From: Bacillota bacterium
GTDB lineage: Bacteria > Bacillota > Limnochordia > Darwinibacteriales > DTU012
Length of the DNA stretch: 64,000 nucleotides
Direction of reading: 5' to 3'
Assembly: GCA_012837335.1 (NCBI GenBank)
Contig: DURM01000019.1
Coordinates: 11,247-75,246, forward strand
The position numbers were made by a program, and so were the translations under genes. Below are positions 17,262 through 47,324 of the stretch, in pieces (position 1 is the stretch's first letter; each line of letters starts with the position of its first letter). A model generated the notes under the pieces. That model was given only the letters and a program-made list of their open reading frames with translations. It had not been told where the DNA came from and searched no databases.

Positions 17262-18584
17262 CTAGAATTTAACAGCAATACCTGCTTTAGCAGTAGTACC
17301 GGTTTTGATAGATTCATCAGCAAATTTACCACCAACGTGGGTGATGCTCAAGCCGATACCGTTAGGTGCATCGTATGCAGCGCCAACTTCATAACCAATT
17401 GTTTCAAGGTCAGAAATTGTAACTTCGCTGTTAAGTTCAAGTCCTTTAACTGCAGGAATTAAGCCCAGTTTAGTGTCAGCACCTACAGTGTGGATCAAGC
17501 CGTTACCAGGTGTCCATTCACCATTGTATTTAGCTGTAACATCTAAACCGTCAATTACTGCGAATGCTCGATCGACTGCTAGATTTGTGCTTTGAGTTTT
17601 AATACCTTCGTTAACTGCTAATACTGTTTCAACATTAACGTTGAATCCTTCTACATTGGTTGCTGCGGATAATACAGCTTCATCAAACATCTGATCATAG
17701 TCAGCTGCTAACTGAATACCAGAGTGCTCAGCAGCGATACCTGCGTAGAAACCGCTGTCTCTGCGGCTGTCTTCATGAATCCAGTTCTGGCCGCGATCTT
17801 TCTTAGCTTTATCAGCGATATATGCCGGTTTCCATTCTTCAGAAATAGCTTTGTAACCACCGTGAACGCTTACGTTATCCATTACTTGATACTGAGCGCC
17901 AACAGCTAACATATGGTGAATAGGTCTTTCTTCGCCCTCTTCAACGTCTTCCAGATCTAATTGTGCTGCAACTGAACCACCAAGTACAAGGTCTTTCATC
18001 GGACGAACTGCACCGTCAACTACCATGTGAAGTGAATCCCAGTCATAGATAACTGCAGTACCAGCCGCCAGATTGTCCATGCTCATGTCAGCGCGGATAC
18101 CCTGGATCGATTTGTGTTCTTCAGTAGGAATACCATAGAAACCATTAACTGCAACTGGACCAATGTTCATGCCGCTGACACTGATACCATATTGATTTTT
18201 AACTGTGCTGAATGGGCCATAGTCAATGTCAAGGCTGCCGAAGCGAGTAGTTGCTTCAGGTCCGCCGTGCCAGAATGAACCATCAGTTTCGATATAAGCT
18301 TTCTTCAGAACAAGATTGTTTGCATCTAATTTCAGGTCTAAACCTTGGCTGTTTTTATCGCCAATACCAAATTCAACAACTGCTCTGGTTTTGTCATCTG
18401 CTGTGTCTAAACCGAAGTTCAGATTCAGCTCAGAAGTCGGTTTAGTTGTGATTGTGCCATCTAAATCTCTGTGCCACTCCAGATTTGTTTTCAAGGAACC
18501 ATCAAAGTTGATACCGGCTGCGAAAACAGATCCGGATACTGCTAATACAAGAGCTAATGTTAAAGCAATAATAGATTTTCTCAT
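17262..18584 (-). CDS. Putative outer-membrane beta-barrel protein / porin
   Basis: Start at 'MRKSIIALTLALVLAVSGSVFA' (Sec signal, RBS GGGGGA). The sequence is rich in alternating hydrophobic residues and Gly, Asp and Asn, and it ends in '...GIAVKF'. A terminal Phe is the usual C-terminal beta-signal of proteins inserted by the BAM outer-membrane assembly machinery. No S-layer-homology domain. Confidence 0.55.
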   Translation of the reverse strand: MRKSIIALTLALVLAVSGSVFAAGINFDGSLKTNLEWHRDLDGTITTKPTSELNLNFGLDTADDKTRAVVEFGIGDKNSQGLDLKLDANNLVLKKAYIETDGSFWHGGPEATTRFGSLDIDYGPFSTVKNQYGISVSGMNIGPVAVNGFYGIPTEEHKSIQGIRADMSMDNLAAGTAVIYDWDSLHMVVDGAVRPMKDLVLGGSVAAQLDLEDVEEGEERPIHHMLAVGAQYQVMDNVSVHGGYKAISEEWKPAYIADKAKKDRGQNWIHEDSRRDSGFYAGIAAEHSGIQLAADYDQMFDEAVLSAATNVEGFNVNVETVLAVNEGIKTQSTNLAVDRAFAVIDGLDVTAKYNGEWTPGNGLIHTVGADTKLGLIPAVKGLELNSEVTISDLETIGYEVGAAYDAPNGIGLSITHVGGKFADESIKTGTTAKAGIAVKF

Positions 18585-19020
18585 TTGGAATATTATCCCC
18601 CTTAAATCTGTTAAATCATTTTCATTTAAGCTTTGTCTTTTAGAAAAAACACTTGAATTTACGATGTCTAAGTCCGAATGAAAGAAGCATTGCCTGTGAG
18701 TATCCATGTTTCCTCATTGTCAATGTTCCTTCTGCTGCTTTGACTGGAACAGTGAGTTCAGCGACTAGACATGTCTTGCTGCATCATTCTCACTCCGTTT
18801 CTCGGTCTGCTTACCGGGGGACTGTCACCTCCTTTCTTGGTCTGCCGAAAAAAAGAGTCGAATGCGCAACACTAACTAACATAAGTTAGCCAAGCTGCAA
18901 TGAAAACTTGTTCATTACAACTACGCTATAAATATTCTCTTTCTTGGACATAAGTCCTGCTAGAAAGCTTAATGAACTTTTTCCCATTTCTGGAAAGCTC
19001 TGCAGTAAATATGCAGTCCG

Positions 19021-23854: not shown

Positions 23855-23877
23855 GATTATCGAGGAGGTATTTGTCT

Positions 23878-24639
23878 ATGAAAAAAACTATGTTCATTAT
23901 GCTGATCAGTTTACTGCTGATTTCAGCGACCGTATCAGCCCAAGTAAATCACCGGATTACATTTGGAGCCGATATCCAGATCAATGCGCTCACCTTTAAT
24001 CCTTTTTTTAAGCCATCGGAAGAAGGGAGCAAAAACTCCAAACAATTCAACACCTGGCAGCTGATGCTGTCCGGAAAAATTGAACCGGCAGCAGACTTAC
24101 TGCTTTTGTTTGATCACGGATTCGGCTGGGCTAACCAATTTAACAACACTTTTGAAAACGATGAGTCAATAACCAACAATGTTACTAAAGCTGCGCTGAT
24201 GTATCAGTTCTATAACGATACTAATCTGCAGATTTACGGCGGACTCGGGTATAATTTTGTTCGCTACAACTTCCATAACCTAATCTACCATGACGATGCG
24301 CTGAAAAAGAATGCTAAGCTGGATGGAAGTGGTTTTTTGGCCGCTTCCCAAGTTAATTTCATTGTTGCCGACAATCTGACTATCAAAGCTAACATTGAAG
24401 CTGCACCTTTTTATACCTGGGTGTATGAAGCAACTGAAAGCGGTGACGACATCAAACGAGGCTCTGCTTATTTCTACCGCCTGACCGCTGAGTACGATAT
24501 CAATCATGCATGGTCTGCCAAGATTGGCTACAGCGGCAGCCGGTCCAATACCAGCGAATTTACTTTGAATGACTACACTGTGCCTGAGATTACCTTCACC
24601 CAAGGCGGTCTCCAAGTGGGAGCAACTTATAAATTCTAA
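23878..24639 (+). CDS. Small outer-membrane beta-barrel protein (OmpW/OmpA-barrel-like)
   Basis: Signal peptide 'MKKTMFIMLISLLLISATVSA' (RBS GAGGAGG). Amphipathic beta-strand pattern rich in aromatic residues and Gly. C-terminal '...GATYKF' beta-signal. Confidence 0.5.
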   Translation: MKKTMFIMLISLLLISATVSAQVNHRITFGADIQINALTFNPFFKPSEEGSKNSKQFNTWQLMLSGKIEPAADLLLLFDHGFGWANQFNNTFENDESITNNVTKAALMYQFYNDTNLQIYGGLGYNFVRYNFHNLIYHDDALKKNAKLDGSGFLAASQVNFIVADNLTIKANIEAAPFYTWVYEATESGDDIKRGSAYFYRLTAEYDINHAWSAKIGYSGSRSNTSEFTLNDYTVPEITFTQGGLQVGATYKF

Positions 24640-31979: not shown

Positions 31980-33198
31980 CTGCCTCACCGGCAGTCATCT
32001 CAGTTTCAGCGGCTTGCCCCTTCTCTGGATTAATCAACAGCTGAGATACGGGCACCAAATCAATGCCTGCAGCAGCAAACTCCGGAATCATTTCCCAAAC
32101 TGCTACAGCAGTAGCGGAGCGAACGTGTCCAATCGCAATTGCCGAACCATCCCGAACAGCCCTCTTCATTATCTGCCGAAGCTGCTGTTTAACTGCTTCA
32201 ACTTCGTTGACATTATCGATAAACAGATTATTCACCGCATAAGGAAGACCCACCGCGACAGCTGCCTGATCAGCCACCGATAAGGGAGTCGTAGAGCTGT
32301 CCAGAAAATAAAGTCCATGGTCTTTGATAACCTCCAAAACAATCCCCATTGTTTCGGCGTCAGCCGTAACTTTTGAACCCATATGATTATTCACGCCGGC
32401 AATCATCGGCAGATGAGCAATATTATCCCGCATGCGCTGCTGGATTTCTTCAGCTGCCATTGAAGTTAAGATGCCGCCTTCACCTAAATCCAGGTGGCTG
32501 TTTAGCGCTTCCATCGGCTGATGCAGAATTACCTCATGACCATGGGCAGCTGCCCGTTCCGCCAGCCGCACAGACTGAGGCAGATAAGGAATAATTGCTG
32601 TAGTAAGAGGAAAAGGATACTGTAAAAAAGCCTCTGCATAAACCGAGGAATAACCCCAATCATCAATCACTATGGCCAGTTTTGGCTTGTTATCTGCTAG
32701 TTGGATGCGGGGATTCATCTGGTTGATCTTCAGTTCAAACCCATGTCCTCCATCTGACAAGTACACCTTGGCTGTCATTTCTTCTTCATCATATTCCGTC
32801 TGAAAGGCCCAACCATGCTCTGCCCACAGCTTTGTTTCCAAACTGATGATCAAGTCATAGAGAGCATTTTCGCTCGCAGTTGGAACAATAAGATACTCAG
32901 CCCGCCTTGCATCCGAATCCAAGCTGGAATCCAGCACTAAATAACCGTGCAGTTCAAACACAGCCGCGGCACTGGCCAGCTTGTCCTCCATTTCTAGAAA
33001 TGGATCGAGAGTTTCCGGCTCCTCGAGAACAATGCTGTTCGCATCTCCGGACCCAACCGGCGTTTCCGCAGCCGATTTACTCATGGCCACCCACACAGCC
33101 GCAGTGCTGATCAGACAAATACTGACAACTATCAAGATCGAAGTGCTGAAGGAACGCCCAATCTGTTTGCCCTGTATATTCTGCTCCATCTTTCTCAC
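31948..33198 (-). CDS. Divergent polysaccharide deacetylase family protein (YibQ-like)
   Basis: N-terminal transmembrane segment plus a YibQ/PF04748-like domain ('LAIVIDDWGYS', 'NNHMGSKVT', 'HVRSATA'). Its 3' end overlaps ppa convergently by 32 nt. Confidence 0.65.
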   Translation of the reverse strand: MRKMEQNIQGKQIGRSFSTSILIVVSICLISTAAVWVAMSKSAAETPVGSGDANSIVLEEPETLDPFLEMEDKLASAAAVFELHGYLVLDSSLDSDARRAEYLIVPTASENALYDLIISLETKLWAEHGWAFQTEYDEEEMTAKVYLSDGGHGFELKINQMNPRIQLADNKPKLAIVIDDWGYSSVYAEAFLQYPFPLTTAIIPYLPQSVRLAERAAAHGHEVILHQPMEALNSHLDLGEGGILTSMAAEEIQQRMRDNIAHLPMIAGVNNHMGSKVTADAETMGIVLEVIKDHGLYFLDSSTTPLSVADQAAVAVGLPYAVNNLFIDNVNEVEAVKQQLRQIMKRAVRDGSAIAIGHVRSATAVAVWEMIPEFAAAGIDLVPVSQLLINPEKGQAAETEMTAGEAVTQPADYPGT

Positions 33199-34463
33199 CC
33201 CTTAAACTTCTGCCGCAGATGTTTCAGCATCCGGTTAAACCACGGTTCACGCATTACCATGTAAACAGGTTGATTTGGCTGCGGGGCAGGAATAAACCCA
33301 AGCGGTGGAATCTTTCCTTTAAAGTTGATTACCCGCGGTGGACTCTTGTCAATCACATTCTGCACTGTCAGCTTCGGGTCAATAACCCAGGGACCGATTT
33401 CTGCGATTAAATGCTGCGGACTTTCTATTCGAACATCATTAACCTGAAGAATTACATCACCCGTTGCTAACCCCATTTTAGCAGCCGGAGAATTTGGATA
33501 CACATCCAAAACCATTACGCCGTTCGTATAGGTAAAGACAGAGCTGCGGCGTTTCTCCCGCTCCTGCCCAAACCTGATCACCCATTCATGGCCTAAAGGG
33601 GCAAACAGCACTGGAATAAACTCTAAATACCTGTATTTATCTGCCACCAGCGTCAGCCCCAACAGCACAATACTGTATAAAAATAGATTTCTGGCCGAAT
33701 AAGCGGTTTTTTCTTCCGGCAGACTCGAAATTGCGATATCGCTGTAGCCAAGCCCGGCAAAGATCGGCGACAGTCTAAATACCAGAGTAAATCCTGCCGG
33801 AACCAAAAGTTCTGGTTTTAAAAGCGGCCACCAATCCGGCATCATAATGCCTGTTTCTAAAGCACTGCTTAATTCTACCGCCGCCAACACCGTAATAAAT
33901 GGCAGCGGCCAAAAACGCTGCAGACTGAATCCGCCAACAACTTTACCCTCGCTGTTTTGAACGTACAGGGGCATGGGGTTGCGGGGTCCGTTCAGGAATA
34001 TCAGCAGCGCTTCCACCAAGTGCAGTACTGCCACTAATCCCATGATCGAAGTTACACTAACCTTTGGAAATCCGAAGATCAGGTAGAAAAGGCTGACCAA
34101 TCCGCCTGCATAGGCAAAGCAGAGAAAACGCGGATTAAAAATCATCAGCGCCAGCGCTGTCAGCCACACAAACGCTATTCCTGTCGTAGACAAACTGATA
34201 CCCAGCGATACAAAGATGATGCTGGCAACGATTCCGCCCAGCAGACCATAGCCTAAACTGATCAGCGACTCTTTCAAAGGGCTGCCCCTATTCAATCCAA
34301 ACATCCGCCGCTGCAGAATGTACACTCGGCGGTATTGGCTGTAGATAATAACGCCCAGAACTGCTAAGATCATCAGATAAATCGGATCAAACAGGATATA
34401 AGGCAGTACCCGGAAAATCAATGCAATTATTTCAGGTAAATTGCCCACTAGTCTAACCTCCAT
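33195..34463 (-). CDS. Polytopic membrane protein with C-terminal PDZ domain
   Basis: At least 8 hydrophobic segments, then a PDZ fold ('GVMVLDVYPNSPAAKMGLATGDVILQVNDVRIESPQHL'). No HExxH motif, so not obviously a site-2 protease. Confidence 0.5.
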   Translation of the reverse strand: MEVRLVGNLPEIIALIFRVLPYILFDPIYLMILAVLGVIIYSQYRRVYILQRRMFGLNRGSPLKESLISLGYGLLGGIVASIIFVSLGISLSTTGIAFVWLTALALMIFNPRFLCFAYAGGLVSLFYLIFGFPKVSVTSIMGLVAVLHLVEALLIFLNGPRNPMPLYVQNSEGKVVGGFSLQRFWPLPFITVLAAVELSSALETGIMMPDWWPLLKPELLVPAGFTLVFRLSPIFAGLGYSDIAISSLPEEKTAYSARNLFLYSIVLLGLTLVADKYRYLEFIPVLFAPLGHEWVIRFGQEREKRRSSVFTYTNGVMVLDVYPNSPAAKMGLATGDVILQVNDVRIESPQHLIAEIGPWVIDPKLTVQNVIDKSPPRVINFKGKIPPLGFIPAPQPNQPVYMVMREPWFNRMLKHLRQKFKG

Positions 34464-34496
34464 CTATAAAAAGCCCCGGAGAAATCCGGGGACTAA

Positions 34497-35750
34497 TTAT
34501 TCTCCATTGATTTGACTGCGAATGATTTCCAGCGCTTTGTCAAGCTGCACATCTACTTCTGCTTCATCAAAGTAAATTGCAACCTCCTCTTCCTCGCTGA
34601 TTTCAATCACATAATCAGGTTCAATGCCTACTTCATTGATGTCATGTCCTCCAGCGGTCAGATACACCTGTTCAGTTAAACTGATCGCACCACCACCGCG
34701 AAGCGGTACAATTGACTGCACTAAACCTTTGCCAAAGGTGGTGGTTCCCACCAGCACCGCCAAATCATGATCCCTAAGCGCTCCGGCAACAATCTCTGAT
34801 GCGCTGGCACTGGAACCATTGATCAGCACTACCATCGGAATCGGATTCCTGGTATTCTCGGCAGAGGCTGTAAAACTGTGACGGTTTCCGTCCCGATCTT
34901 CCAAATGCACAATGGGACCGGTATGAATAAACTCATCAGCTACCTGCAGTGCTGCGCTCAGAGTTCCTCCAGGATTAAACCGCAGATCTAAAATCAGTCC
35001 GGCCATACCTTCCGCTTCCAGCTGGTCCAGCGCTGTTCTCAACTCGGAATAAGTTCGGTCTGAAAAATTGGTTAACTGAATATATCCAATCCCCGGTTCA
35101 AGCATCTCCGTCCGCTCGATCGAGTTAACAGAAATAAGGTCCCGGACAATAGAAACATCGAGAATTTCTTCATCCCTTTGAATAGTAATAGTCACTTCTG
35201 TGCCCGGCTCTCCCCGCATTAAGCTTGCCGCTTCATCAGTAGTCATATAGTTAGTGTCGCGATCTTCAATCTTTATGATCCGATCATTGCCGCGCAAGCC
35301 TGCCTGTTCACCGGGAGTGCCTTTGATGGGAGAAATGATTGTTAACTGCTCATCGCGAATTCCGATCACAATTCCAATACCGCCAAACACACCGGATGTA
35401 TCACTCATCAAACTCTCATAGGCGTGCTGATCCATATAACGCGTATACGGGTCTTCGAGCGCTTTAGCCAGCATTCCTCTGATACTGCCCGTTTCCGCAT
35501 AAGCGCTGAGCAGGTCGGATACCTCTACCGGTTTATAAAACCGTGACCTGACCAGTGTTACGATTTCCAGCAAACTGCCGGCATCATCGGTTACTACTGC
35601 GGACTCGGTCCCCACACCAATACTTGGGAAGACTGAACCATACAAAAATGCTGCTAATAACAAGAGTACGGCTGTTGATAAGACTAATACTCTGCGCTTC
35701 ACCGGATCACCGCCTTTTTCTACTATTTCTATTCTGGTCCTCTGTCTCAA
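34497..35750 (-). CDS. ctpA: S41 family C-terminal processing peptidase (CtpA/Prc-like)
   Basis: PDZ ('GIGIVIGIRDEQLTI') plus S41 catalytic core ('LILDLRFNPGG', 'GSSASASE', 'TTFGKG'). Confidence 0.85.
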   Translation of the reverse strand: MRQRTRIEIVEKGGDPVKRRVLVLSTAVLLLLAAFLYGSVFPSIGVGTESAVVTDDAGSLLEIVTLVRSRFYKPVEVSDLLSAYAETGSIRGMLAKALEDPYTRYMDQHAYESLMSDTSGVFGGIGIVIGIRDEQLTIISPIKGTPGEQAGLRGNDRIIKIEDRDTNYMTTDEAASLMRGEPGTEVTITIQRDEEILDVSIVRDLISVNSIERTEMLEPGIGYIQLTNFSDRTYSELRTALDQLEAEGMAGLILDLRFNPGGTLSAALQVADEFIHTGPIVHLEDRDGNRHSFTASAENTRNPIPMVVLINGSSASASEIVAGALRDHDLAVLVGTTTFGKGLVQSIVPLRGGGAISLTEQVYLTAGGHDINEVGIEPDYVIEISEEEEVAIYFDEAEVDVQLDKALEIIRSQINGE

Positions 35751-35815
35751 TATTACAGTTCACATCTTCATATGATTTCTCAATGAAACCGTCGAATTCC
35801 TGCAAAGTCAAAAAG

Positions 35816-36928
35816 TTAACTCAACCAAATCCATGGATCAACATGTTCTTGATGCTGGCGGACCTCAAAATGTAGATGAGGACCGGTGCTGAATCCGGTA
35901 GAACCGACTAAAGCAACAGCATCTCCGGCGCGGACTATATCTCCCGGTTTAACCAGCAGCTTAGAGGCATGGGCATAAAGTGTAGACAAGCCCTCCCCAT
36001 GATCAATAACCACTGTCAATCCATAGCCATTGGCATCTTCGCTGAGAACTACCGTGCCATCAGCTGCAGCCCGAATCGGGACTCCAGCATTGACCGCCAA
36101 GTCGATCCCGGTATGGAAACGCTCTTCCTCATAGATGGGATGAAAGCGCATGCCATAATCAGAGGACACAACTCCCTTTTCATCCAGCGGCCACACAAAC
36201 TCCGAAAAGCCAACGCTGTCCCGCACCTGTTTCTCCAACTGCCAGGCGCGACTTTCTTCTCGATATATCTTTCGCGTTAATTCCGAGATTTGCTGCCGGA
36301 TAGCGGCATTATCCTTCTTTTTATCCGATAGCTCGCTGCCGGCACTTTTCAGTTCAGCTTCTAACCTACTCAATCTGGCCTGCAGCTCTGCTTGCTCCGC
36401 CATCAGAGCGGTCAGCTGCTTCTGACCCTGCTGGTTCTTTCGCTGCTCCGTTTTGTGGGTATCTGCAGCTGCTCGGTACTCTTCAGCGCTTTTATAAAGC
36501 AGGTAATCCAAGAACAATCCAGCATTTGGATTAACCGGCTGGCCTTTTCTTAAAGCTGAATCAGCACTTCTGCTCAACTTGGCAAGTTGTTCTTGAGACC
36601 GCCGGCTGTGAATCTCTGCGGATTTACCTCTGGCAGCAAGCTTTTCTTCAAGATCGGCACGCTCCGCAGCCGCTTGATTAATCGCTTCCAGAATCTCCGC
36701 CTGCTCTGTCTTGAAAGCATCATACTGTTTTTGCTGCTGATCAAGTTCGCGAGCTGTTTGCTCCACCTTGGTCTCCAGCTCAGCCAGCTCTGCCTGCATC
36801 TTCTCAATCTGAGCCTTTGATTCAACGTAAGACTCCCGAATAACCGTAGGATTATCCCCATCTGCAGCCGCAGCCATCCCGGTAAATGCAGTAAATACTA
36901 CTAATAATAAAACAATTAGGCGGCGCAT
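35816..36928 (-). CDS. Coiled-coil M23 family metallopeptidase (EnvC-like architecture, catalytic residues intact)
   Basis: Signal peptide, then about 230 aa of heptad-rich coiled coil. The C-terminal M23 domain has HxxxD ('HTGIDLA') and HxH ('GPHLHFEV') zinc ligands. Confidence 0.8.
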   Translation of the reverse strand: MRRLIVLLLVVFTAFTGMAAAADGDNPTVIRESYVESKAQIEKMQAELAELETKVEQTARELDQQQKQYDAFKTEQAEILEAINQAAAERADLEEKLAARGKSAEIHSRRSQEQLAKLSRSADSALRKGQPVNPNAGLFLDYLLYKSAEEYRAAADTHKTEQRKNQQGQKQLTALMAEQAELQARLSRLEAELKSAGSELSDKKKDNAAIRQQISELTRKIYREESRAWQLEKQVRDSVGFSEFVWPLDEKGVVSSDYGMRFHPIYEEERFHTGIDLAVNAGVPIRAAADGTVVLSEDANGYGLTVVIDHGEGLSTLYAHASKLLVKPGDIVRAGDAVALVGSTGFSTGPHLHFEVRQHQEHVDPWIWLS

Positions 36929-37437
36929 TGATTCCCACGCCTCCTAAACAATCTAACACCATGAATACCTGCTATGGCAGCAGCAACACTGAAAACCAGC
37001 ACCATTAAGCCATAAATTCGCTGTAATGCTGCGCTAAAACCAGCAAGCTGAGCAGCGGTTTCGCCATGGTACGCAACATATTCCACACCGGCAAGTTCCT
37101 GAACCGCTTCAGCAGCTGACGCTCCGGATTGTGGCTCAATGCTGACATCAAGATAATGCGGCATTGGTTCCGCTTCCGGCCAGGGATGACCTAGGGCCGC
37201 TTCAAACTCAGCCGCTGCCTGCTCGGCATCGAAAACTGTCACCGCAGCAACACCATCTACTGCTCTAACTGCAGATGCGATTCTGTCAAGATCTGCACCG
37301 TGTTCAGGAAATACCCGCATAATGCTGCTTTCAATCACCGCAGCATGGAGTTCGCGCACAGAAAAAATTAAGCCGGCAGTTAGGACACACAGCAATACAA
37401 ACACTGCCAGCAGTGGAATGCCCTTATTATAAGTCAT
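36916..37437 (-). CDS. Truncated FtsX-like protein (TM1 + extracellular domain + TM2 only)
   Basis: 173 aa. It aligns to FtsX from TM1 through TM2 ('...LMVLVFSVAAAIAGIHGVRLFRRR'). It stops exactly where FtsX continues with the 'EIEIMKLVGAT' cytoplasmic loop. No alternative frame continues, and the next gene starts 12 nt before this stop. It has its own RBS (GGAGGGAG) and a TATAAT box. Confidence 0.6.
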   Translation of the reverse strand: MTYNKGIPLLAVFVLLCVLTAGLIFSVRELHAAVIESSIMRVFPEHGADLDRIASAVRAVDGVAAVTVFDAEQAAAEFEAALGHPWPEAEPMPHYLDVSIEPQSGASAAEAVQELAGVEYVAYHGETAAQLAGFSAALQRIYGLMVLVFSVAAAIAGIHGVRLFRRRGNQCAA

Positions 37438-37546
37438 AATTAAACTCCCTCCACTAACTTATGTTAGTTATGGTATCGGACATTCCCATTATAGACCAAT
37501 CTAGGGCAATAAACAAGGTTTCAGGGCTGGCAATAACTCGTATTCC

Positions 37547-38389
37547 TTACATTCTTTTGAAGCCTTCCCCAAGTACCTCATGAACATCGCTGATAACTAC
37601 AAACGCATTGGGATCAATTTCCTTGACAAGCTCCCGCAGACTCTGGATCTCGGAGCGAGAAACAATCACATACAAAACTTCGCGTTCAGCTCCAGTATAC
37701 ATTCCTTTGCCAAACAGCGCAGTTGCTCCCCGTTCGAGCTTAGTGAGAATCATCTGGCCAACTTCTTCTGTATGATCGGTGATGATCAATGCTGCCTTAG
37801 CATAACTCTGTCCTTCCTGAACTACATCGATTGCTTTCGTGGTGACAAATACGGCTAACAGCGCGTATAAAGCCAGTTCCGGTCCAAAGACAAAAGCGGC
37901 CAGGGCAATCACAAATCCGTCCACAAATAAAAGTGCTCGCCCAACTGATGTAGGGAAAAATCTAGCAATCAACTGGGCTGCCATATCAGTTCCACCGGTG
38001 CTGCCTCCAAAGCGGAAAGTGATCCCCAGTCCCACACCGGTAATCACACCTCCATACACCGCCGATAAAAGAGGATCCGAGGTCAGGGGCACCGCCCACC
38101 GCTGAAACAAGTCAACTAAGAGCGAGAGTGTGACTGTGCCGACAAAGGTCTTAGCACCATAAACCGTTCCCAGAATCCTGATTCCGGCAATGAATAAAGG
38201 GATGTTTAAAGCCAGCATGGTCAGACCTACCGGGAAATTAAACAAATGATACGCTACAGTGGACAACCCGCTGACGCCGCCTGCAGCAATCCGGCTCGGG
38301 ATTAAAAACCAGCTCAGCCCAAACGCGGTAATGACCACACCAAAGAGTACGCCAAAATATTCCCGCAGTTTTTGAACGAATTTACCCAT
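37547..38389 (-). CDS. YitT-family membrane protein (DUF161 + DUF2179)
   Basis: Multi-TM N-terminus ('GGVSGLSTVAYHL') and a C-terminal DUF2179-like domain ('VLYVIVSRSEIQSLRELVKEIDPNAFVVISDV'). Start set at 'MGKFVQKL'. Confidence 0.7.
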   Translation of the reverse strand: MGKFVQKLREYFGVLFGVVITAFGLSWFLIPSRIAAGGVSGLSTVAYHLFNFPVGLTMLALNIPLFIAGIRILGTVYGAKTFVGTVTLSLLVDLFQRWAVPLTSDPLLSAVYGGVITGVGLGITFRFGGSTGGTDMAAQLIARFFPTSVGRALLFVDGFVIALAAFVFGPELALYALLAVFVTTKAIDVVQEGQSYAKAALIITDHTEEVGQMILTKLERGATALFGKGMYTGAEREVLYVIVSRSEIQSLRELVKEIDPNAFVVISDVHEVLGEGFKRM

Positions 38390-39128
38390 TCGCAGGCTTA
38401 CCTCCTGAAAATAACCTTTCAAACAGCACCCATAAAGCAAACTGAGGTAACGCTGCCGCCCGTCCTACACGCGATGGCTGCTGGAGGATGCGATACAGCC
38501 ATTCCAAACCAAACCTCCGCATCCACCGCGGCGCGCGGCGAACGGTTCCGGCTAGAATATCAAAGCTGCCCCCCACTCCCATTGCTACCGGTACCCCTAG
38601 TGAGGCAAGGTGAGCTGCCGCAAACTTTTCCTGTTTAGGCACTCCCAGCGCTACGAAGAGTATGTCCGGCCGGGAAGCTTTTATCTTTTCTAGCACTCCG
38701 TTCAGATCCTCCTGCTTAAAATACCCATGATGAGTGCCGACAATGTTGATACCATTATATTCCTCAGCTATTCTATTGGCAGCCTGCTCTGCTACCCCCG
38801 GTGCTGCTCCCAGCAGAAAGACCCGCCATCCGCGGGTGGAGCTTTCTGCCAGCATGGCCTGCATTAATTCAACGCCGGGTACCCGTTCCGGTAGCGGCTG
38901 TTTGAGAATTCTGCCTGCCCAGATCACGCCGATTCCGTCAGGAACAACCAGATCTGCCCTCTCGATAATCTCGTAAAGCAGTGGATCCCTGTTAGCAGCT
39001 ACGATCATCTCTGAGTTAGCAGTGACTACTAAATGCGGTTTAGGCTGCTTAATCATTGCGGCAATCTCGGCAACCGCCTCATCCATGGTAACTTGATCAA
39101 TTTTTACTCCCAAGATGCTGCTTTTCAT
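38382..39128 (-). CDS. tagA: WecB/TagA/CpsF-family glycosyltransferase (N-acetylmannosaminyltransferase-like)
   Basis: 248 aa ('VVTANSEMIV', 'VPDGIGVIWAGR', 'FLLGAAPGVAEQAA', 'LGVPKQEKF'), typical of TagA/WecG. Confidence 0.75.
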   Translation of the reverse strand: MKSSILGVKIDQVTMDEAVAEIAAMIKQPKPHLVVTANSEMIVAANRDPLLYEIIERADLVVPDGIGVIWAGRILKQPLPERVPGVELMQAMLAESSTRGWRVFLLGAAPGVAEQAANRIAEEYNGINIVGTHHGYFKQEDLNGVLEKIKASRPDILFVALGVPKQEKFAAAHLASLGVPVAMGVGGSFDILAGTVRRAPRWMRRFGLEWLYRILQQPSRVGRAAALPQFALWVLFERLFSGGKPANG

Positions 39129-39140
39129 ACTCGTCCCCCA

Positions 39141-40175
39141 TTATTTATTCCTTACAGCTGCAGCGAGTACATCGCGGTTTTTTTTGCTTAAAGTCCGCAT
39201 CAGCTCCACACGTTCAGCTAACCGCCGGAGATAATCATCACGGTCAGCGCGCACCTGAACTAGTTCGGCTGTCAGATCTTGATCCGGCTGTGGTGAAGAT
39301 ACTTTAATGCCTAATTGAGAGCTCACAGCTGCAACTTTCGGATCATAACAGAGTCCCAGAGGAGCGCTGCCCCCCAGTGCCGCAAAAATCAAGCCATGAA
39401 GCCGCATCGAAACACAGATCTCAGCAGCAGACATTAAACGAAATGCGCTGTTCCAGTCCTCAGCAATTATAAATTCAAGTTCAGGTATCTCCTGCTGCAG
39501 TTTCCGACCAATTTCCGCATCACCCGGACCTAAGGCAGCAAATCGGACATCGAGGTTGAGCCCGCTTTTCCAGCTGTTAATTAAATCCACCCACCGGTAA
39601 AAATCTGCCTGCAAAGTAGGATAAGGCCGCAGGTTAATAGTTAATCCTGGTGCAGTTGCGCGGTGGTCCAGCTGCAGGTTAAAAACCGGATCGGCTGCGG
39701 TAATAATTAGGCTCTCATCCAACCCCCAGTCCTGCAGAAGCTGCGCACTTCCCGCATCCCGAACAGAAATCCCGTGCACACGGCTGAACACTGATTTGAT
39801 CCAGCGCTGATACACTCGGCTGCTGACCGGGCCTATTCCCTGGCCATAGATGACAACTTTGCATCCAAAGCTTAGTGCGAGTTGAATAATGAGCAGATAA
39901 TAGGGAACTGTGCGCCAGCTGGTGCTGTCCTGCAGCAGCGAACCCCCACCGCTGATCAGCAGCCTGCTGCGGCGTACAGCTCTGACAATTGCGGGAAAAT
40001 TAGAGCGGGGCACCGCGCTGACCTTGTGCAGAGCCGCCGTTTCTTCCGGATTGCCGGAAAGCACTGTAATTTCGCTGGGATCAACACCCAATGAGACTAA
40101 ATCAGAGCACAAAGCCGCTAAAACAGCTTCATCACCGCTGTTGCCGCAGCCGTAATACCCGGAAATAAGAATCAT
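39141..40175 (-). CDS. csaB: Polysaccharide pyruvyl transferase CsaB
   Basis: Starts 'MILISGYYGCGNSGDEAVLAAL...'. Polysaccharide-pyruvyl-transferase fold of the CsaB type, which pyruvylates secondary cell-wall polymer so that SLH domains can bind it. Confidence 0.75.
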   Translation of the reverse strand: MILISGYYGCGNSGDEAVLAALCSDLVSLGVDPSEITVLSGNPEETAALHKVSAVPRSNFPAIVRAVRRSRLLISGGGSLLQDSTSWRTVPYYLLIIQLALSFGCKVVIYGQGIGPVSSRVYQRWIKSVFSRVHGISVRDAGSAQLLQDWGLDESLIITAADPVFNLQLDHRATAPGLTINLRPYPTLQADFYRWVDLINSWKSGLNLDVRFAALGPGDAEIGRKLQQEIPELEFIIAEDWNSAFRLMSAAEICVSMRLHGLIFAALGGSAPLGLCYDPKVAAVSSQLGIKVSSPQPDQDLTAELVQVRADRDDYLRRLAERVELMRTLSKKNRDVLAAAVRNK

Positions 40176-41824
40176 CCGCTGCTCACCTTTGTTCCTTTCT
40201 GATAGACCAGCCACAGCACCCATCCTACTGCATATCCGATAACAAGACCGTTAACTGTGCGGATAGCGCTGATAATAATCGGTGTGTGGATGTGGGTAAA
40301 TGTATTGACCAGGGATAACTGCCCAATTACTGCTAAACCCATTAAAATTGGATTGCGGTTCTTAGATGCCAGCAGCAGAACCAGCGCTGGGTGCCCGATA
40401 AATATCTCCTTAAAGCGGGGTCTAACGGTAAAAAACTGCTCCAAGGCTTCCCGCAGACCGATTTCAAACTGAGGTATTGGCAGTTTAAAGTTGGCAGTCC
40501 GCAGAATATATACTGCTCCAACCGCACCAACAACCGCCAGCATCAGCAGATATTTTACCGGCACCGATGTCTGATACAACTCCGATACCACCTGTCTAAA
40601 TTCCCGCCAAGATCGAAACGGCAGTCTATCCCTTAAATATCCGGTGACAAAAACTAAAAACACAGGGGCCAAATGCATCAGCTTCACTCCACGAAACTCG
40701 GTCAGCTTAACCAAGAAGGATGTGCCGCTGAGAATACCGATGATCAAAATCAAGCCAATAAAAGACCACGCTGTTGTTCGTAGATAAAGCTGGATTGTTG
40801 AGCCATCATCATGATTCCGCACCACTGCTAAGGTTGGAAAAACCACTGCTGCTGTCAGCGCCAGCAGCTGCTGACCTAGCACGGGAGCTCTGCTCAGAAT
40901 GAACCAGGAACCGATACCGCTGATCAAAAGCAGGACAACTATCCACTCTGGCTCTAATGTCATCCAGTGCTGTAGAAGCAGCAATGCCCCGGCTATAATG
41001 CCTAACCCGACGATCCACAAGTGCAGATGGGGTGTCTGCCAGGAACTGAATGGAACAGCTTTACCAATCTTGTATCCCTTAGCATGCAGATCCGCAGTCA
41101 AGCTTCTGATCAAGGTAACTGTTTGCTCCCAGCCATCTACTCCGGTTAACGGACGCAGATACAGAACACGGACATTGCGTTCCCGCACCGCTCGGACAAA
41201 TCGGGTCAGAATCCGATCAAACTCCAGATTTTCAAGCTCCTTAGCGCTGATACCATGAACGCGAATCAGCCGATCTGCATCTACAGCCTGTTCAATCCCC
41301 GACACACTGGTAAACTCCACCAAACCTACATTTCCATCATAGTCAGGTGGTAGGTTAGGTGCCGAACCGACATTAAAGATCACTATATGGGGCGTTAAGT
41401 CCGCTAATTTATCTGCTGTGGAAATATCCAAAACCTGGTTCTTCTCAAGCCGCGGGATTATCCTCATGCCTGCGGCAGAAACTGCAGCGATTTCATCAGG
41501 ATTAAATCCCATCGGCTCAGCCAATAGCTGAACCAGATCGCCACCTGATGCGCTTGCAGATGCAGCATGATCATATCCCAAGGCGATCTTTTCACCCAAA
41601 GTCCATTCTGTTAAAGCAATGCTTTCTATTCCCAGACTTCTTAATTCTGACAGCAGGGCAGCCGCCGGAAACTCAGGTGAAATAAACTGACTGAAGTCGC
41701 TGAAACCAGCGACTAATTCTACCGTATTATTCTCCCGTTCCAGATGAAGCCTTTGATAACCGACTGCGACAGCACCGGCCAAAGCTACTGCGATCAGCAA
41801 AATCAATGTACGCTTCATAATCAA
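40172..41824 (-). CDS. Large membrane protein, DUF5693-like (csaB-associated)
   Basis: 550 aa. N-terminal signal anchor, an extracytoplasmic domain of about 250 aa, then at least 8 TM helices. Family name is from memory of csaB-neighbour annotations and was not verified. Confidence 0.4.
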   Translation of the reverse strand: MIMKRTLILLIAVALAGAVAVGYQRLHLERENNTVELVAGFSDFSQFISPEFPAAALLSELRSLGIESIALTEWTLGEKIALGYDHAASASASGGDLVQLLAEPMGFNPDEIAAVSAAGMRIIPRLEKNQVLDISTADKLADLTPHIVIFNVGSAPNLPPDYDGNVGLVEFTSVSGIEQAVDADRLIRVHGISAKELENLEFDRILTRFVRAVRERNVRVLYLRPLTGVDGWEQTVTLIRSLTADLHAKGYKIGKAVPFSSWQTPHLHLWIVGLGIIAGALLLLQHWMTLEPEWIVVLLLISGIGSWFILSRAPVLGQQLLALTAAVVFPTLAVVRNHDDGSTIQLYLRTTAWSFIGLILIIGILSGTSFLVKLTEFRGVKLMHLAPVFLVFVTGYLRDRLPFRSWREFRQVVSELYQTSVPVKYLLMLAVVGAVGAVYILRTANFKLPIPQFEIGLREALEQFFTVRPRFKEIFIGHPALVLLLASKNRNPILMGLAVIGQLSLVNTFTHIHTPIIISAIRTVNGLVIGYAVGWVLWLVYQKGTKVSSG

Positions 41825-42510
41825 GCCCCGCTTCCATAAAGTTCAATCCGATCTTCTTTGATCCTGATTTCATCCAGCTGGATCGGAATCGGCAGATCAC
41901 CGAGATCGATCTGCAGCGTATACGCCTCACTAACTAGTTCTAGCAGCAGCGAGGGAACCCTTGTATCTTCAATCAGAAAATCAACCGGCATAATCACTAT
42001 CTGGGCTGGATCAATAATCTGCAGTTCGGTCAGCAGACTCACACTCCAGCTGATCTGCCATAACTCCACCGTACCATTTAGGGCAGCCTGGTTTTCCCGC
42101 AGATCGATTGTAAACAGCTGGTTGCGATCCAGTCGCTCCCAAAAATACTGGTTCAAACCGGCTTCAGATAAAATCAGCTCCGCGTGGAGCTCTTCTGCTC
42201 CCAAATAAGCAAAATCTCCATTCTGCAGCAACCGCTGGACATCAATGGCCGCATCTCTGCTCGAAAGCTCAAAGGCTGCTATCGGCAGGCCATTTAGATT
42301 CCAGTTTCTACCGTAGATGCTGATAGACGCAAATCTGCCAAAGAGAAGTTCCCATCCGAATCTAGTTTGAATCTTTATTTGAGACTCGCCGCCCAACTCT
42401 GCTTCCAAATACTCAACAACAGTCTTTTCAAACAAACCGGGCAGCACAATCCGCGGCAGCAAAAGTACTGCAGTCAGAATCAGCACCCAAATAATCACCC
42501 TTGGTCGCAC
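41821..42510 (-). CDS. Hypothetical membrane-anchored protein (DUF2993/LmeA-like?)
   Basis: 229 aa with an N-terminal TM ('VIIWVLILTAVLLLP') then a soluble domain. Family assignment is tentative. Confidence 0.3.
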   Translation of the reverse strand: MRPRVIIWVLILTAVLLLPRIVLPGLFEKTVVEYLEAELGGESQIKIQTRFGWELLFGRFASISIYGRNWNLNGLPIAAFELSSRDAAIDVQRLLQNGDFAYLGAEELHAELILSEAGLNQYFWERLDRNQLFTIDLRENQAALNGTVELWQISWSVSLLTELQIIDPAQIVIMPVDFLIEDTRVPSLLLELVSEAYTLQIDLGDLPIPIQLDEIRIKEDRIELYGSGA

Positions 42511-46196: not shown

Positions 46197-47324
46197 TTAT
46201 ACCGATGCTGCATTGTGCCCGGCGATGTAACTAGCATCAAGCAGCGCCCATAGTCCTCCTGTCACTAAAGAGTGGCCGCCAAGCATTATCGGTATCGGCG
46301 CACTGCAGGCCGCCGCCGTGAACTCCCTCAGTCCGGGGTGGGATATCTGGTCAACCATGCCTAAATCAGAATAAAACCGATCACTCTGCGATAAGTCCCA
46401 GTTCCAATGGGCAAACATGATTCTGGAATCAAGCACAGCTCCATGGCTGATTTGGCCGAGGAATCTAAAAAACTGCTCATAACCATAGGAAACCATCATT
46501 TCTCCAAATAGAGACTGTGCCTCTCCTCGCACATCCCTTCCCAGCGCTTTCATACCTCGTTCCTCCGAGTAGAGCCGGATGCGGCAGCGGGTCAGCTCAT
46601 CGAGAAGTTTAAACAAGGAGGAATTAACCCGGCCGTAAACCAGCAGTTCACCGTGAAAATCTCCCATCACTTGTTTTATTTTATCACATCGAGTCAGATC
46701 GATATCCATTTCCGCCACAGCCCGCTTGGTGTGTTCACCCACATGGGGGTGGCATGCTAAAATCATCAGATCACTTGGTGTATCAATATCAAACTGCAGA
46801 CCGAGAGAACGCTGCAGGGGAATAAATCTGAGATCCGCCTGCTGCACCAGAAGCTGCGGCAGCGTATTATCAATTGCAGGCAGATCAACTTCTGCGAGCG
46901 CTGACCCAGGAGATAATCCGACCAGGTCAGCTGAGTAATAGTTGTTAGCAGTTACGACTCGATCGTGCTGTTCCAGCAGTCTGCGGATATTCCTGAGTTC
47001 ATAAGCAGAAATAAGGGGAGCTGCCGCTCCCCCCATGTATAAAACCTTGTTCAACTTTCTCTGTTTTACAACTCTGAGCAGTTCTTTCCCAAAGTGAAAC
47101 TCCTCTGTCACCTGTGGGTGAAACTCAATTTCTACTGGATATCCTGACGCTGCTTCTGCTAAATCTTGATAGGAGGTCATGATTACTATCCGCTCAAAGC
47201 CAGCCGCTTGAGCCTTGCAAATCTGATCAATTACTATTGCTTTTCGCACCCGGCGCATCATTTCTTCTGGTTCGCTGGATACGGATCCACCCTCGAAAAT
47301 AACTAAGGTTACAGAAGAGTCCAT
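46197..47324 (-). CDS. Hypothetical protein; N-terminal half resembles MobA/CofC-like nucleotidyltransferase fold
   Basis: 375 aa with no confident family assignment. '[19 protein letters not shown]' and 'DIDTPSDL' resemble guanylyltransferase (CofC/MobA-like) motifs. The C-terminal 170 aa are unassigned. Confidence 0.3.

What the first reader, a model, noticed from the sequence alone, without database searches (positions are those of the whole stretch)
36916..37437. 'Mini-FtsX': FtsX truncated after TM2, no FtsE, directly upstream of a coiled-coil M23 peptidase
The protein aligns to FtsX from TM1 through the extracellular domain to TM2, then terminates ('...GVRLFRRRGNQCAA*') exactly where FtsX continues with the FtsE-contacting loop (EIEIMKLVGAT). 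No other frame continues, because the EnvC-like gene starts 12 nt before the stop. No ftsE is adjacent. It retains its own RBS and a TATAAT box. The FtsX extracellular domain is what binds the EnvC/PcsB coiled coil. So this could be an ATPase-independent membrane tether or activator for the neighbouring, catalytically intact M23 peptidase. Alternatively it is a decaying pseudogene, with a full ftsEX elsewhere.
Basis: partly seen in the sequence, partly recalled or inferred. Interest (0 to 1): 0.6.

Follow-up and report, generated by a model that had tools for sequence, protein, structure and literature searches.

The report
Conserved half-FtsX partnered with M23 hydrolase
An uncultured order of biogas-reactor bacteria (MBA03/DTU010) has kept only the outward-facing front half of the cell-division protein FtsX, with no ATPase gene nearby, and always makes it together with, or fused to, a cell-wall-cutting enzyme, so the docking half of this molecular switch seems to have a use of its own.

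Summary
ORF 36916..37437(-) encodes 173 aa matching FtsX from TM1 through the extracellular domain to TM2. It stops where full-length FtsX begins its FtsE-coupling segment. The pseudogene alternative is refuted. The same 171-183 aa protein occurs in at least 12 clusters (22-46% identity) of the uncultured order MBA03/DTU010 ('Ca. Darwinibacteriales'). Eight of these clusters had DNA fetched here. In all eight it sits in the same slot, with a 13-nt start/stop overlap onto a coiled-coil M23 gene and a conserved promoter. In at least two lineages it is fused in frame to that M23 protein. In Fervidicola the collinear module is ftsE-ftsX-M23-ctpA-PDZ, so ftsE and the 3' half of ftsX were lost in place. 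AlphaFold models match solved FtsX (TM1-ECD-TM2) and EnvC. The invariant residues cluster in the X-lobe equivalent, including the counterpart of E. coli F152, which is needed for EnvC binding. The M23 catalytic residues are intact. Best reading: an engine-less FtsX remnant serving as membrane receptor or regulator of an EnvC-like endopeptidase. Not shown: that the genome has no ftsE anywhere, physical binding, and whether it activates or inhibits. It is a new variant of the FtsEX-EnvC kind.

The parts
36916..37437 (-). mini-ftsX CDS, 173 aa: TM1, extracellular domain, TM2, and a roughly 10-aa basic cytoplasmic tail
37354..37416 (-). TM1 (about aa 8-28), continuing as a stalk helix to aa 37
   Evidence: Hydropathy scan; AF2 helix 3-37
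37069..37326 (-). Extracellular Porter-type domain (aa 38-123; beta-alpha-beta, helix plus loop, beta-alpha-beta)
   Evidence: AF2 pLDDT about 90. Foldseek hits to FtsX ECDs 6hfx, 6he6, 6tpi_B and 4n8n
37156..37227 (-). X-lobe equivalent (aa 71-94, 'EQAAAEFEAALGHPWPEAEPMPHY'). It holds the invariant F78, G83, W86 and P93 and is 4-5 residues shorter than in full-length FtsX
   Evidence: highest conservation of any segment. F78 aligns with E. coli F152 (PMC7668044)
36952..37020 (-). TM2 (about aa 140-162), preceded by a stalk helix from aa 125
36916..36944 (-). Translational-coupling junction: GGAGG (36940-36944) inside the mini-ftsX 3' end, M23 ATG (36926-36928), mini-ftsX TAA (36916-36918). 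The overlap forces the invariant Cys171 codon
   Evidence: The same 13-nt overlap occurs in all 8 complete unfused loci and in partial locus L023; partial locus L020 overlaps by 28 nt
35816..36928 (-). EnvC/PcsB-type coiled-coil M23 (LytM) endopeptidase, 370 aa. It has a signal peptide, two helices of about 100 aa, and a LytM domain with HxxxD, YxH and HxH intact
34497..35750 (-). CtpA/CtpB-type S41 tail-specific protease with a PDZ domain; the last gene of the predicted operon
34474..34491 (-). Intrinsic-terminator-like hairpin (7 bp, 6 GC) followed by a T-run, directly after ctpA
37445..37452 (-). Shine-Dalgarno GGAGGGAG, 7 nt before the mini-ftsX ATG
37453..37468 (-). Conserved palindrome ACTAAC-ATAA-GTTAGT between the -10 box and the SD; a candidate operator
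   Evidence: Changes in the arms are not compensatory
37488..37516 (-). Promoter: TTGTTT (37511-37516), 17-nt spacer, TATAAT (37488-37493). The -10 box is invariant in 12 species
   Evidence: alignment A7
37526..37536 (-). Conserved upstream element TTATTGCCAGC, of unknown role
33195..34463 (-). Polytopic membrane protein with a PDZ domain. It is a collinear member of the ancestral ftsEX-M23-ctpA-PDZ module and lies downstream of the terminator

Best explanation
mini-ftsX is a functional, long-conserved remnant of ftsX. In the ancestor of the MBA03/DTU010 order, ftsE and the 3' half of ftsX (coupling segment, TM3, TM4) were deleted in place. What remains is a two-helix membrane hairpin carrying the FtsX extracellular Porter/X-lobe domain. 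It is transcribed from its own conserved promoter as mini-ftsX, M23, ctpA. It is translationally coupled to the downstream EnvC-like but catalytically intact M23 endopeptidase, and in some lineages fused to it. I propose that the extracellular domain docks the tip of the M23 protein's coiled coil through its X-lobe equivalent (F78, G83, W86, P93), as FtsX docks EnvC, PcsB and RipC. This would hold the secreted hydrolase at the cytoplasmic-membrane surface and set its autoinhibition state without an ATP-driven switch. Control would then come from transcription (conserved palindrome) and perhaps from the co-operonic CtpA protease. Shown here: homology and fold, truncation point, conservation, coupling, fusions, and in-place loss of ftsE. 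Inferred: physical binding, ATP independence, tether or activator role, and CtpA involvement.
For: (1) Family: phmmer against 1.84 billion representatives gave 12 clusters of 173-183 aa at 22-46% identity (some called N-terminal extensions look spurious, giving a true length of 171-173 aa). It also gave one 539-aa fusion and only 2 full-length FtsX at weak E-values. (2) The context is the same in all 8 other species with complete unfused loci: (secA-prfB-LmeA-)DUF5693-CsaB-TagA-YitT, then mini-ftsX, M23, CtpA, PDZ, YibQ(-uvrBA), with the same 13-nt overlap. (3) In-frame fusions occur in L012, L013/P0046, P0004 and P0047 (one clade), and in the divergent P0112 with the same synteny. The fusion topology puts both the ECD and the M23 part outside the membrane. 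(4) pN (0.32-0.49) is below pS (0.58-0.77) in all 7 species pairs compared. The promoter, operator and SD are conserved far more than the protein. (5) Fold: the mini model has pLDDT 87 and its best PDB matches are all FtsX, led by 8i6o_A (TMq 0.69 over 178 columns). The partner's best matches are EnvC in FtsEX-EnvC complexes, 8tzl_E and 6tpi_A, over about 381 columns. (6) Conservation peaks in the X-lobe equivalent. F78 aligns with E. coli F152, whose F152E change impairs EnvC binding. (7) Ancestral state: Fervidicola has ftsE-ftsX-M23(CC_PcsB)-CtpA-PDZ in the same order, and L021 has ftsE-ftsX-M23. (8) No ftsE or FtsX C-terminal half is in the window or in seven other loci tested (L011-L014, L016, L018, L021). 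(9) The M23 Zn and catalytic residues are invariant.
Against: A genome-wide absence of ftsE, or of a separate gene for the FtsX C-terminal half, was not tested; the tools reach only about 10 kb around a gene. No contact-level evidence for ECD to coiled-coil docking exists, because coordinates and PAE were not available and pTM was 0.58 for the two-part model. The Pfam CC_PcsB hit that marks the FtsX-binding tip in outgroup M23 proteins is absent in this clade, so the interface has diverged or changed. The canonical complex is FtsX2:EnvC1, whereas the fusions imply 1:1. dS is saturated, so dN/dS values are rough. There are no expression data.
Confidence: 0.68

Rival explanations
1. Inhibitory anchor. 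Without an ATPase, the half-FtsX holds the active M23 endopeptidase in the autoinhibited 'resting' conformation, as ADP-state FtsEX does for EnvC. Release would need another event, for example CtpA cleavage of the anchor or of a restraining helix. The anchor is made first and the two are translationally coupled, which would be a safety device for a dangerous enzyme.
For: The M23 domain is catalytically intact. The anchor gene lies upstream and is coupled or fused. ctpA is in the same predicted operon, which ends at a terminator. A conserved helix segment 'RQ....QR..Y.QE' precedes the LytM domain, where EnvC has its restraining arm (PMC7668044).
Against: No data on the sign of regulation exist. 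This reading uses the same binding assumption as the best explanation, so it is a sub-variant of it, not an exclusive alternative.
Confidence: 0.25
2. Paralogous adaptor. The genome still has a canonical ftsEX elsewhere that serves division. mini-FtsX would then be a specialised extra receptor for this one hydrolase.
For: The rest of the genome could not be searched. Some bacteria carry more than one FtsX-like system (background knowledge, not tested here).
Against: mini-ftsX sits exactly in the ancestral ftsX slot of the collinear ftsE-ftsX-M23-ctpA-PDZ module. It therefore looks like the ortholog, not a duplicate. No FtsX-like hit from this clade other than the mini and fused forms appeared in the exhaustive phmmer search, although that search has low power for divergent paralogs.
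Confidence: 0.2
3. Split FtsX. The C-terminal half (coupling helix, TM3, TM4) and FtsE are encoded elsewhere and reassemble with mini-FtsX into an ATP-driven complex.
For: Only the fact that the whole genome was not searched.
Against: Nothing of this kind lies in 64 kb here or in seven other loci. In the fused species TM2 runs after about 10 residues straight into the M23 signal-anchor helix, which leaves no room for a coupling helix in cis. The cytoplasmic N-terminus is only about 7 residues long.
Confidence: 0.07
4. A decaying pseudogene or an assembly artefact.
For: None remains. At first the only support was that it is half a gene.
Against: The length is conserved at 22-46% identity across at least 12 clusters. 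It was seen on dozens of independent contigs from different assemblies. The promoter, SD and coupling overlap are conserved. pN is below pS. In-frame fusions have been retained.
Confidence: 0.02

Closest known systems
FtsEX-EnvC (E. coli, V. cholerae, P. aeruginosa; PDB 6tpi, 8tzl, 8i6o)
   Same: The FtsX TM1-Porter/X-lobe-TM2 fold is shared. The partner has two long antiparallel helices plus a C-terminal LytM domain. The X-lobe Phe (E. coli F152, here F78) is conserved. The gene order ftsX then envC-like is the same.
   Different: There is no FtsE nearby, no coupling helix, no TM3 or TM4, and almost no cytoplasmic N-terminus. The X-lobe is reduced to one helix plus a conserved loop. The LytM domain is catalytically intact here, whereas E. 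coli EnvC is a degenerate activator of amidases. The genes overlap or are fused.
Clostridial/Firmicute ftsE-ftsX-M23(CC_PcsB)-ctpA-PDZ module (e.g. Fervidicola ferrireducens LOED01000012, locus L027)
   Same: It is collinear gene for gene with window 33195-37437, and its M23 protein is about 31% identical over its full length.
   Different: Fervidicola has ftsE (231 aa) and a full 304-aa FtsX with PF02687. Its M23 protein carries a recognisable CC_PcsB tip, which the DTU010 proteins lack.
FtsEX-PcsB (S. pneumoniae), FtsEX-CwlO (B. subtilis), FtsEX-RipC (M. tuberculosis)
   Same: The logic is the same: an FtsX ECD docks a coiled-coil, autoinhibited peptidoglycan hydrolase that is itself catalytic.
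   Different: The catalytic domains differ (CHAP or NlpC/P60 there, M23 here). All of those systems need FtsE ATPase activity, and none is known as a half-FtsX.
Other type VII ABC transporter permeases (MacB, LolC/E)
   Same: A Porter domain sits between TM1 and TM2 on long stalk helices.
   Different: Those are always 4-TM proteins with an NBD partner. Sequence and fold searches here hit FtsX specifically.

Membership tests
FtsX (permease-like cell division protein, type VII ABC) | N-terminal half: TM1, extracellular Porter domain with X-lobe, TM2 | tested here: met
   Pfam FtsX_ECD scores 26.4 bits against a cutoff of 23.5. The family profile hits PDB FtsX at E 6.5e-10. hhalign gives 98% probability. 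The AF2 model's top 13 Foldseek PDB hits are all FtsX. The X-lobe is shortened.
FtsX (permease-like cell division protein, type VII ABC) | C-terminal FtsX/MacB permease domain (PF02687): coupling helix after TM2, then TM3 and TM4 | tested here: not met
   The protein ends about 10 aa after TM2. There is no PF02687 hit. No ORF like the FtsX C-terminal half occurs in the window or in seven other loci. The NCBIfam scores of 27-28 bits are far below the cutoffs of 225 and 255.
FtsX (permease-like cell division protein, type VII ABC) | A partner FtsE ABC ATPase encoded adjacent (ftsE-ftsX operon) | tested here: not met
   No FtsE-like ORF is in the 64-kb window or in the related loci tested by phmmer; the called genes of the remaining loci show no ABC ATPase next to mini-ftsX. 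A YitT-family gene and a promoter lie directly upstream. The genome-wide test was not possible.
FtsX (permease-like cell division protein, type VII ABC) | FtsE anywhere in the genome | not testable with these tools
   A closed genome exists (a contig of 2,391,850 bp) but cannot be read beyond +/-10 kb. The word-index protein search scores only the 8000 nearest candidates.
FtsX (permease-like cell division protein, type VII ABC) | Positional orthology: lies between the prfB/YitT side and the coiled-coil hydrolase and ctpA | tested here: met
   Collinear with Fervidicola ftsE-ftsX-M23-ctpA-PDZ and with L021 ftsE-ftsX-M23.
EnvC/PcsB-type FtsX-regulated coiled-coil hydrolase (the neighbour) | Signal peptide, long antiparallel two-helix coiled coil, C-terminal hydrolase or LytM domain | tested here: met
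   AF2 helices 196-296 and 303-408 plus the LytM domain, mean pLDDT 89.7. The top Foldseek hits are EnvC chains 8tzl_E and 6tpi_A over about 381 columns.
EnvC/PcsB-type FtsX-regulated coiled-coil hydrolase (the neighbour) | Recognisable CC_PcsB (PF24568) tip, the FtsX-binding region | tested here: not met
   There is no PF24568 hit for the window protein or for P0047 and P0112, whereas outgroup homologs have it. The clade instead has its own conserved tip motif FLDYLxY.
EnvC/PcsB-type FtsX-regulated coiled-coil hydrolase (the neighbour) | Physical binding of the coiled coil by the FtsX ECD | not testable with these tools
The only support is coupling, fusions and X-lobe conservation.
Active M23/LytM metallopeptidase | Zn and catalytic residues: HxxxD, a downstream catalytic His, HxH | tested here: met
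   FHTGID, YAH and HLH are present and invariant in 14 aligned sequences (H441, D445, H489, H520, H522 in P0047 numbering). Pfam Peptidase_M23 scores E 1.4e-35.
Pseudogene | Loss of constraint: variable length, frame disruptions, presence limited to one lineage or strain | tested here: not met

The most novel reading that the evidence does not exclude
The whole MBA03/DTU010 order has no FtsE at all. It has replaced the ATP-driven FtsEX mechanotransmission switch with a static half-FtsX receptor, made 1:1 with (or as one polypeptide with) an active EnvC-like endopeptidase. Regulation would be taken over by a dedicated operator and the co-operonic CtpA protease. This would be a natural experiment separating the docking function of the FtsX extracellular domain from its ATPase-driven signalling.
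Probability: 0.4. Interest if true: 0.75.

Novelty: new variant of a known kind. Interest (0 to 1): 0.65.

Why it matters
FtsEX is the standard example of an ABC 'transporter' that transmits force instead of moving a substrate. All studied systems (EnvC, PcsB, CwlO, RipC) need the FtsE ATPase. Here a lineage-wide half-FtsX lacks the coupling segment and has no ftsE nearby, yet it is co-translated with or fused to its hydrolase. This suggests the extracellular docking module is useful by itself. That makes two open questions directly testable: what ECD binding alone does to an autoinhibited coiled-coil hydrolase, and what the ATPase adds. The 173-aa protein and its natural 539-aa fusions are small, tractable constructs for structural and biochemical work. 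MBA03 is uncultured but can make up as much as 38% of the bacterial community in some biogas digester samples (PMC12663870), so expression data should be obtainable. Public annotation currently calls the protein either 'cell division protein FtsX' or 'hypothetical'; both labels mislead.

Tried and rejected
(1) The word-index homolog searches with the protein and with the family profile found only same-species hits or 4 hits. The exhaustive phmmer search was needed.
(2) The first genome-contig query, with the 12-sequence alignment, was rejected as too divergent. The 5-sequence alignment worked.
(3) I considered using the 'longest_contig = 2,391,850' value as a fingerprint to find an FtsE on the same closed genome. 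I dropped this because only the 8000 nearest candidates are scored.
A first mixed MSA misaligned the mini rows. A6 was checked before use.
(5) afdb50 was unavailable, so I could not ask whether other half-FtsX folds exist in AFDB.
(6) Within-species dN/dS is uninformative: there are 2 substitutions, 1 synonymous and 1 giving R58K.
(7) I rejected an RNA hairpin for the palindrome, because the arm changes in L016, L018, L020, L022 and L024 break pairs without compensation.
(8) I rejected a LexA/Cheo-type SOS box. The TAAC-N4-GTTA sites are not upstream of uvrB, uvrA or uvrC.
(9) I rejected programmed -1 frameshifting at the overlap, because there is no slippery heptamer and no conserved one.
(10) The phmmer hits P0007 and P0017 are low-complexity repeat proteins and were discarded.
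(11) Literature searches found no description of a truncated or FtsE-less FtsX. The MBA03 paper does not mention FtsX or FtsE, and no supplements are held.
Full report
**1. The observation**

The ORF 36916..37437(-) is real: it starts with ATG and encodes 173 aa. It passes the Pfam gathering score for FtsX_ECD (26.4 bits against 23.5; residues 48-121). Both NCBIfam FtsX models align residues 12-155 to profile positions 28-183 of about 296. Their scores of 27-28 bits are far below the full-length cutoffs of 225 and 255, as expected for half a protein.

Hydropathy gives two transmembrane segments, at about aa 8-28 and 140-162. The ends are short and basic (K5; RLFRRRGNQ). This topology places residues 38-123 outside the membrane.

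Aligned with the two full-length FtsX proteins recovered (P0016, 286 aa; P0018, 294 aa), the protein ends at 'FRRRG-NQCAA'. At that point the full-length proteins continue 'FVRRHEIDVFRLVGADD...' and 'YINREAIGTLKLLGAPD...' into the coupling segment, TM3 and TM4.

The downstream M23 gene (35816..36928, minus strand) starts inside the mini-ftsX 3' end, with a 13-nt overlap. No FtsE-like ATPase is in the 64-kb window. The only ABC folds are a MalK-type protein and UvrA.

**2. Organism**

The exact protein is in NCBI as HHT36112.1 and MFB5067609.1. It is labelled 'permease-like cell division protein FtsX [Candidatus Wallacebacter cryptica]' or 'hypothetical protein'. It occurs on 83 contigs, the longest of 2,391,850 bp.

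The lineage is MBA03, which is GTDB order DTU010 and 'Ca. Darwinibacteriales'. It is uncultured and abundant in anaerobic digesters (PMC12663870). That paper does not mention FtsX or FtsE.

**3. Not a pseudogene: a conserved family**

An exhaustive phmmer search of 1.84 billion representatives gave 17 hits.
- Twelve are proteins of 173-183 aa at 22-46% identity.
- One is a 539-aa protein.
- One is a contig-end fragment of the query's own protein (P0002).
- Two are low-complexity false positives.
- Only two are full-length FtsX, at weak E-values of 9e-6 and 4e-4.

In the family alignment the invariant residues are F78, G83, W86, P93 and C171.

I fetched DNA for eight further species with complete unfused loci (L011, L014, L016, L018, L022, L024, L025 and the same-species loci L001-L010) and for two partial loci (L020, L023). 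The context is always (secA-prfB-LmeA-)DUF5693-CsaB-TagA-YitT, then mini-ftsX, M23, CtpA, PDZ protein, YibQ(-ppa-uvrB-uvrA).

In every complete unfused locus, and in partial locus L023, the stop of mini-ftsX and the start of the M23 gene overlap by the same 13 nt (xxA TGY ... stop). A GGAGG-like Shine-Dalgarno lies inside the mini-ftsX 3' end. In partial locus L020 the overlap is 28 nt. The invariant Cys171 is thus the TGY codon forced by the downstream ATG. This is a footprint of conserved translational coupling, not of a functional cysteine.

Nonsynonymous differences are fewer than synonymous ones in all 7 species pairs compared (pN 0.32-0.49 against pS 0.58-0.77). The rough dN/dS of 0.15-0.38 is similar to that of the M23 gene, but dS is saturated.

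The 109-nt region upstream is much better conserved than the protein. It contains TTATTGCCAGC, then TTGTTT, 17 nt, TATAAT, then the palindrome ACTAAC-ATAA-GTTAGT and the SD. A terminator-like hairpin follows ctpA, so the predicted operon is mini-ftsX, M23, ctpA.

**4. Natural fusions**

In L012 (JAAYNP01), L013/P0046 (FIZJ01), P0004 and P0047 the two genes form a single 538-539-aa ORF. These four are 56-63% identical to one another and form one clade. P0047 carries both the FtsX_ECD and Peptidase_M23 Pfam hits.

P0112 (563 aa, locus L026) is a much more divergent fusion with the same TagA-YitT synteny and a degenerate ECD. It probably arose by a second, independent fusion.

In the fusions TM2 is followed, after about 10 residues, by the former M23 signal peptide. 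This gives a 3-TM topology that places both the ECD and the coiled coil with its LytM domain outside the membrane. A signal-peptidase-like motif (V/A-x-A before Q/T-x-TELRQ) is kept in fused and unfused forms alike. The fusions may therefore still be cleaved into the same two products; this is an inference.

**5. Ancestral state**

The nearest full-length relative, P0016, lies in ftsE-ftsX-M23. In the cultured Fervidicola ferrireducens the closest outgroup M23 protein (P0060) lies in ftsE (231 aa), ftsX (304 aa; FtsX_ECD plus FtsX), M23 (with CC_PcsB), CtpA and a PDZ membrane protein. This order is collinear, gene for gene, with window 33195-37437.

The family profile aligns to that FtsX at residues 34-181 of 304 (hhalign 98%, E 1.5e-13). 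So ftsE and the 3' half of ftsX were lost in place in the ancestor of the order.

From memory, not tested here: B. subtilis has hpf-secA-prfB-yvjA(YitT family)-cccB-ftsE-ftsX...ctpB...uvrBA, which would be the same wider synteny.

**6. Structure**

AF2 of the mini protein, using the 12-sequence MSA, gives pLDDT 87.1. The model shows:
- helix 3-37 (TM1 and stalk);
- beta 39-44, alpha 50-58, beta 63-69;
- alpha 71-82 and loop 83-94;
- beta 95-100, alpha 102-113, beta 118-122;
- helix 125-172 (stalk and TM2).

Foldseek against the PDB returns FtsX for the top 13 hits. These include 8i6o_A (TMq 0.69 over 178 columns, so including both membrane helices), 8ymc_C, 6hfx/6he6, 6tpi_B and 4n8n.

AF2 of the window pair joined as in the natural fusions gives pLDDT 89.7 and pTM 0.58. 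It shows two helices of about 100 residues followed by the LytM domain. Its best PDB matches are EnvC chains from FtsEX-EnvC complexes (8tzl_E at 1.3e-14; 6tpi_A), aligned over about 381 columns. Coordinates and PAE are not returned, so I cannot say whether the ECD contacts the coiled coil in the model.

**7. Where the constraint lies**

Conservation is highest in the X-lobe equivalent, aa 71-94. Its mean majority-residue frequency is 0.61, against 0.32-0.47 in all other segments.

F78 aligns with E. coli FtsX F152. In E. coli the X-lobe is the EnvC-binding site, and the F152E change is the most disruptive point mutation (PMC7668044). The X-lobe here is 4-5 residues shorter. Its second helix is replaced by the conserved loop GYPWPGxNPLP.

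On the partner side, three patches outside the LytM domain are conserved:
- the mature N-terminus (T-ELRQ-Y);
- a hairpin-tip motif, FLDYLxY;
- a segment, RQ....QR..Y.QE, just before the LytM domain.

These positions parallel the N-terminal heptads, the FtsX-binding tip and the restraining arm of EnvC. The outgroup proteins have a Pfam CC_PcsB hit at the tip, but the clade's proteins do not. The two sides of the presumed interface thus appear to have diverged together. The M23 Zn and catalytic residues are invariant, so the partner should be an active endopeptidase, unlike E. coli EnvC.

**8. Mechanism**

My best explanation, at confidence about 0.68, is that mini-FtsX is an engine-less FtsX remnant that acts as the membrane receptor or regulator of the co-translated EnvC-like endopeptidase.
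- Shown: homology, fold, truncation point, order-wide conservation, coupling, fusions, and in-place loss of ftsE.
- Inferred: binding through the X-lobe equivalent, ATP independence, and control by transcription and by CtpA.

Because the protein has no coupling segment and only about 7 cytoplasmic N-terminal residues, it cannot receive a canonical FtsE signal even if an FtsE exists. Whether docking activates, merely tethers, or locks the enzyme off is open. The inhibitory-anchor variant is a serious sub-alternative.

Remaining rivals are a paralogous adaptor alongside a canonical ftsEX elsewhere (0.2), a split FtsX (0.07) and a pseudogene (0.02).

**9. Novelty**

No paper in the held library describes a truncated or FtsE-less FtsX. 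Public records call the protein FtsX or hypothetical. I rate it a new variant of a known kind, the FtsEX-coiled-coil-hydrolase systems.

The main limitation is that the rest of the genome could not be searched for ftsE.

Noticed in passing
window 37453-37468 and 18875-18890 (also 47300-47311): The palindrome ACTAAC-ATAA-GTTAGT lies between the -10 box and the SD of mini-ftsX and is conserved in 12 species. A second near-identical copy (GCTAACTTATGTTAGT) lies about 170 nt upstream of ORF 17262-18707(-). TAAC-N4-GTTA occurs 3 times against 0.39 expected. The arm changes are not compensatory, so it looks like a DNA operator of a small envelope regulon. No binding factor was identified.
   Followed up: partly
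window 17262-18707 (-) and 23872-24639 (+): The first is a 481-aa ORF with no Pfam hit. It has an internal signal peptide (MRKSIIALTLALVLAVSGSVFA) and ends in ...GIAVKF, which looks like an outer-membrane beta-barrel or porin. The second is a 255-aa protein hitting OMP_b-brl (PF13505). Together they suggest a diderm-type envelope in this Bacillota lineage.
   Followed up: partly
window 38382-42510 (-): A block of LmeA-like, DUF5693, CsaB pyruvyl transferase and TagA/WecG genes is inserted between prfB and the YitT gene. It looks like secondary cell-wall polymer synthesis and pyruvylation (SLH-domain anchoring). It is conserved next to the mini-ftsX operon in the related loci, although the LmeA gene is missing in L016 and L018.
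   Followed up: no
window 37526-37536 (-): The element TTATTGCCAGC, about 10 nt upstream of the -35 box of the mini-ftsX promoter, is conserved across species. Its role is unknown; it could be an UP element or a second factor site.
   Followed up: no
whole window: The window has 47.4% G+C. The species description of 'Ca. Wallacebacter cryptica' states 59.09% G+C (PMC12663870), yet NCBI assigns this exact protein to that species. Either the published figure or the taxonomic label is off.
   Followed up: no
window 46197-47324 (-): A 375-aa ORF between hpf and secA has no Pfam hit. It is conserved at the same position in the same-species loci L001-L005, and the third TAAC-N4-GTTA match lies at its 5' end.
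   Followed up: no
L012 6001-7620; L013 6001-7617; L026 1978-3669: In the fused forms the former M23 signal peptide, with its AxA-like site before 'T-ELRQ', is retained as an internal third transmembrane helix. The fusion might therefore be cleaved by signal peptidase into the same two products as in unfused species.
   Followed up: partly
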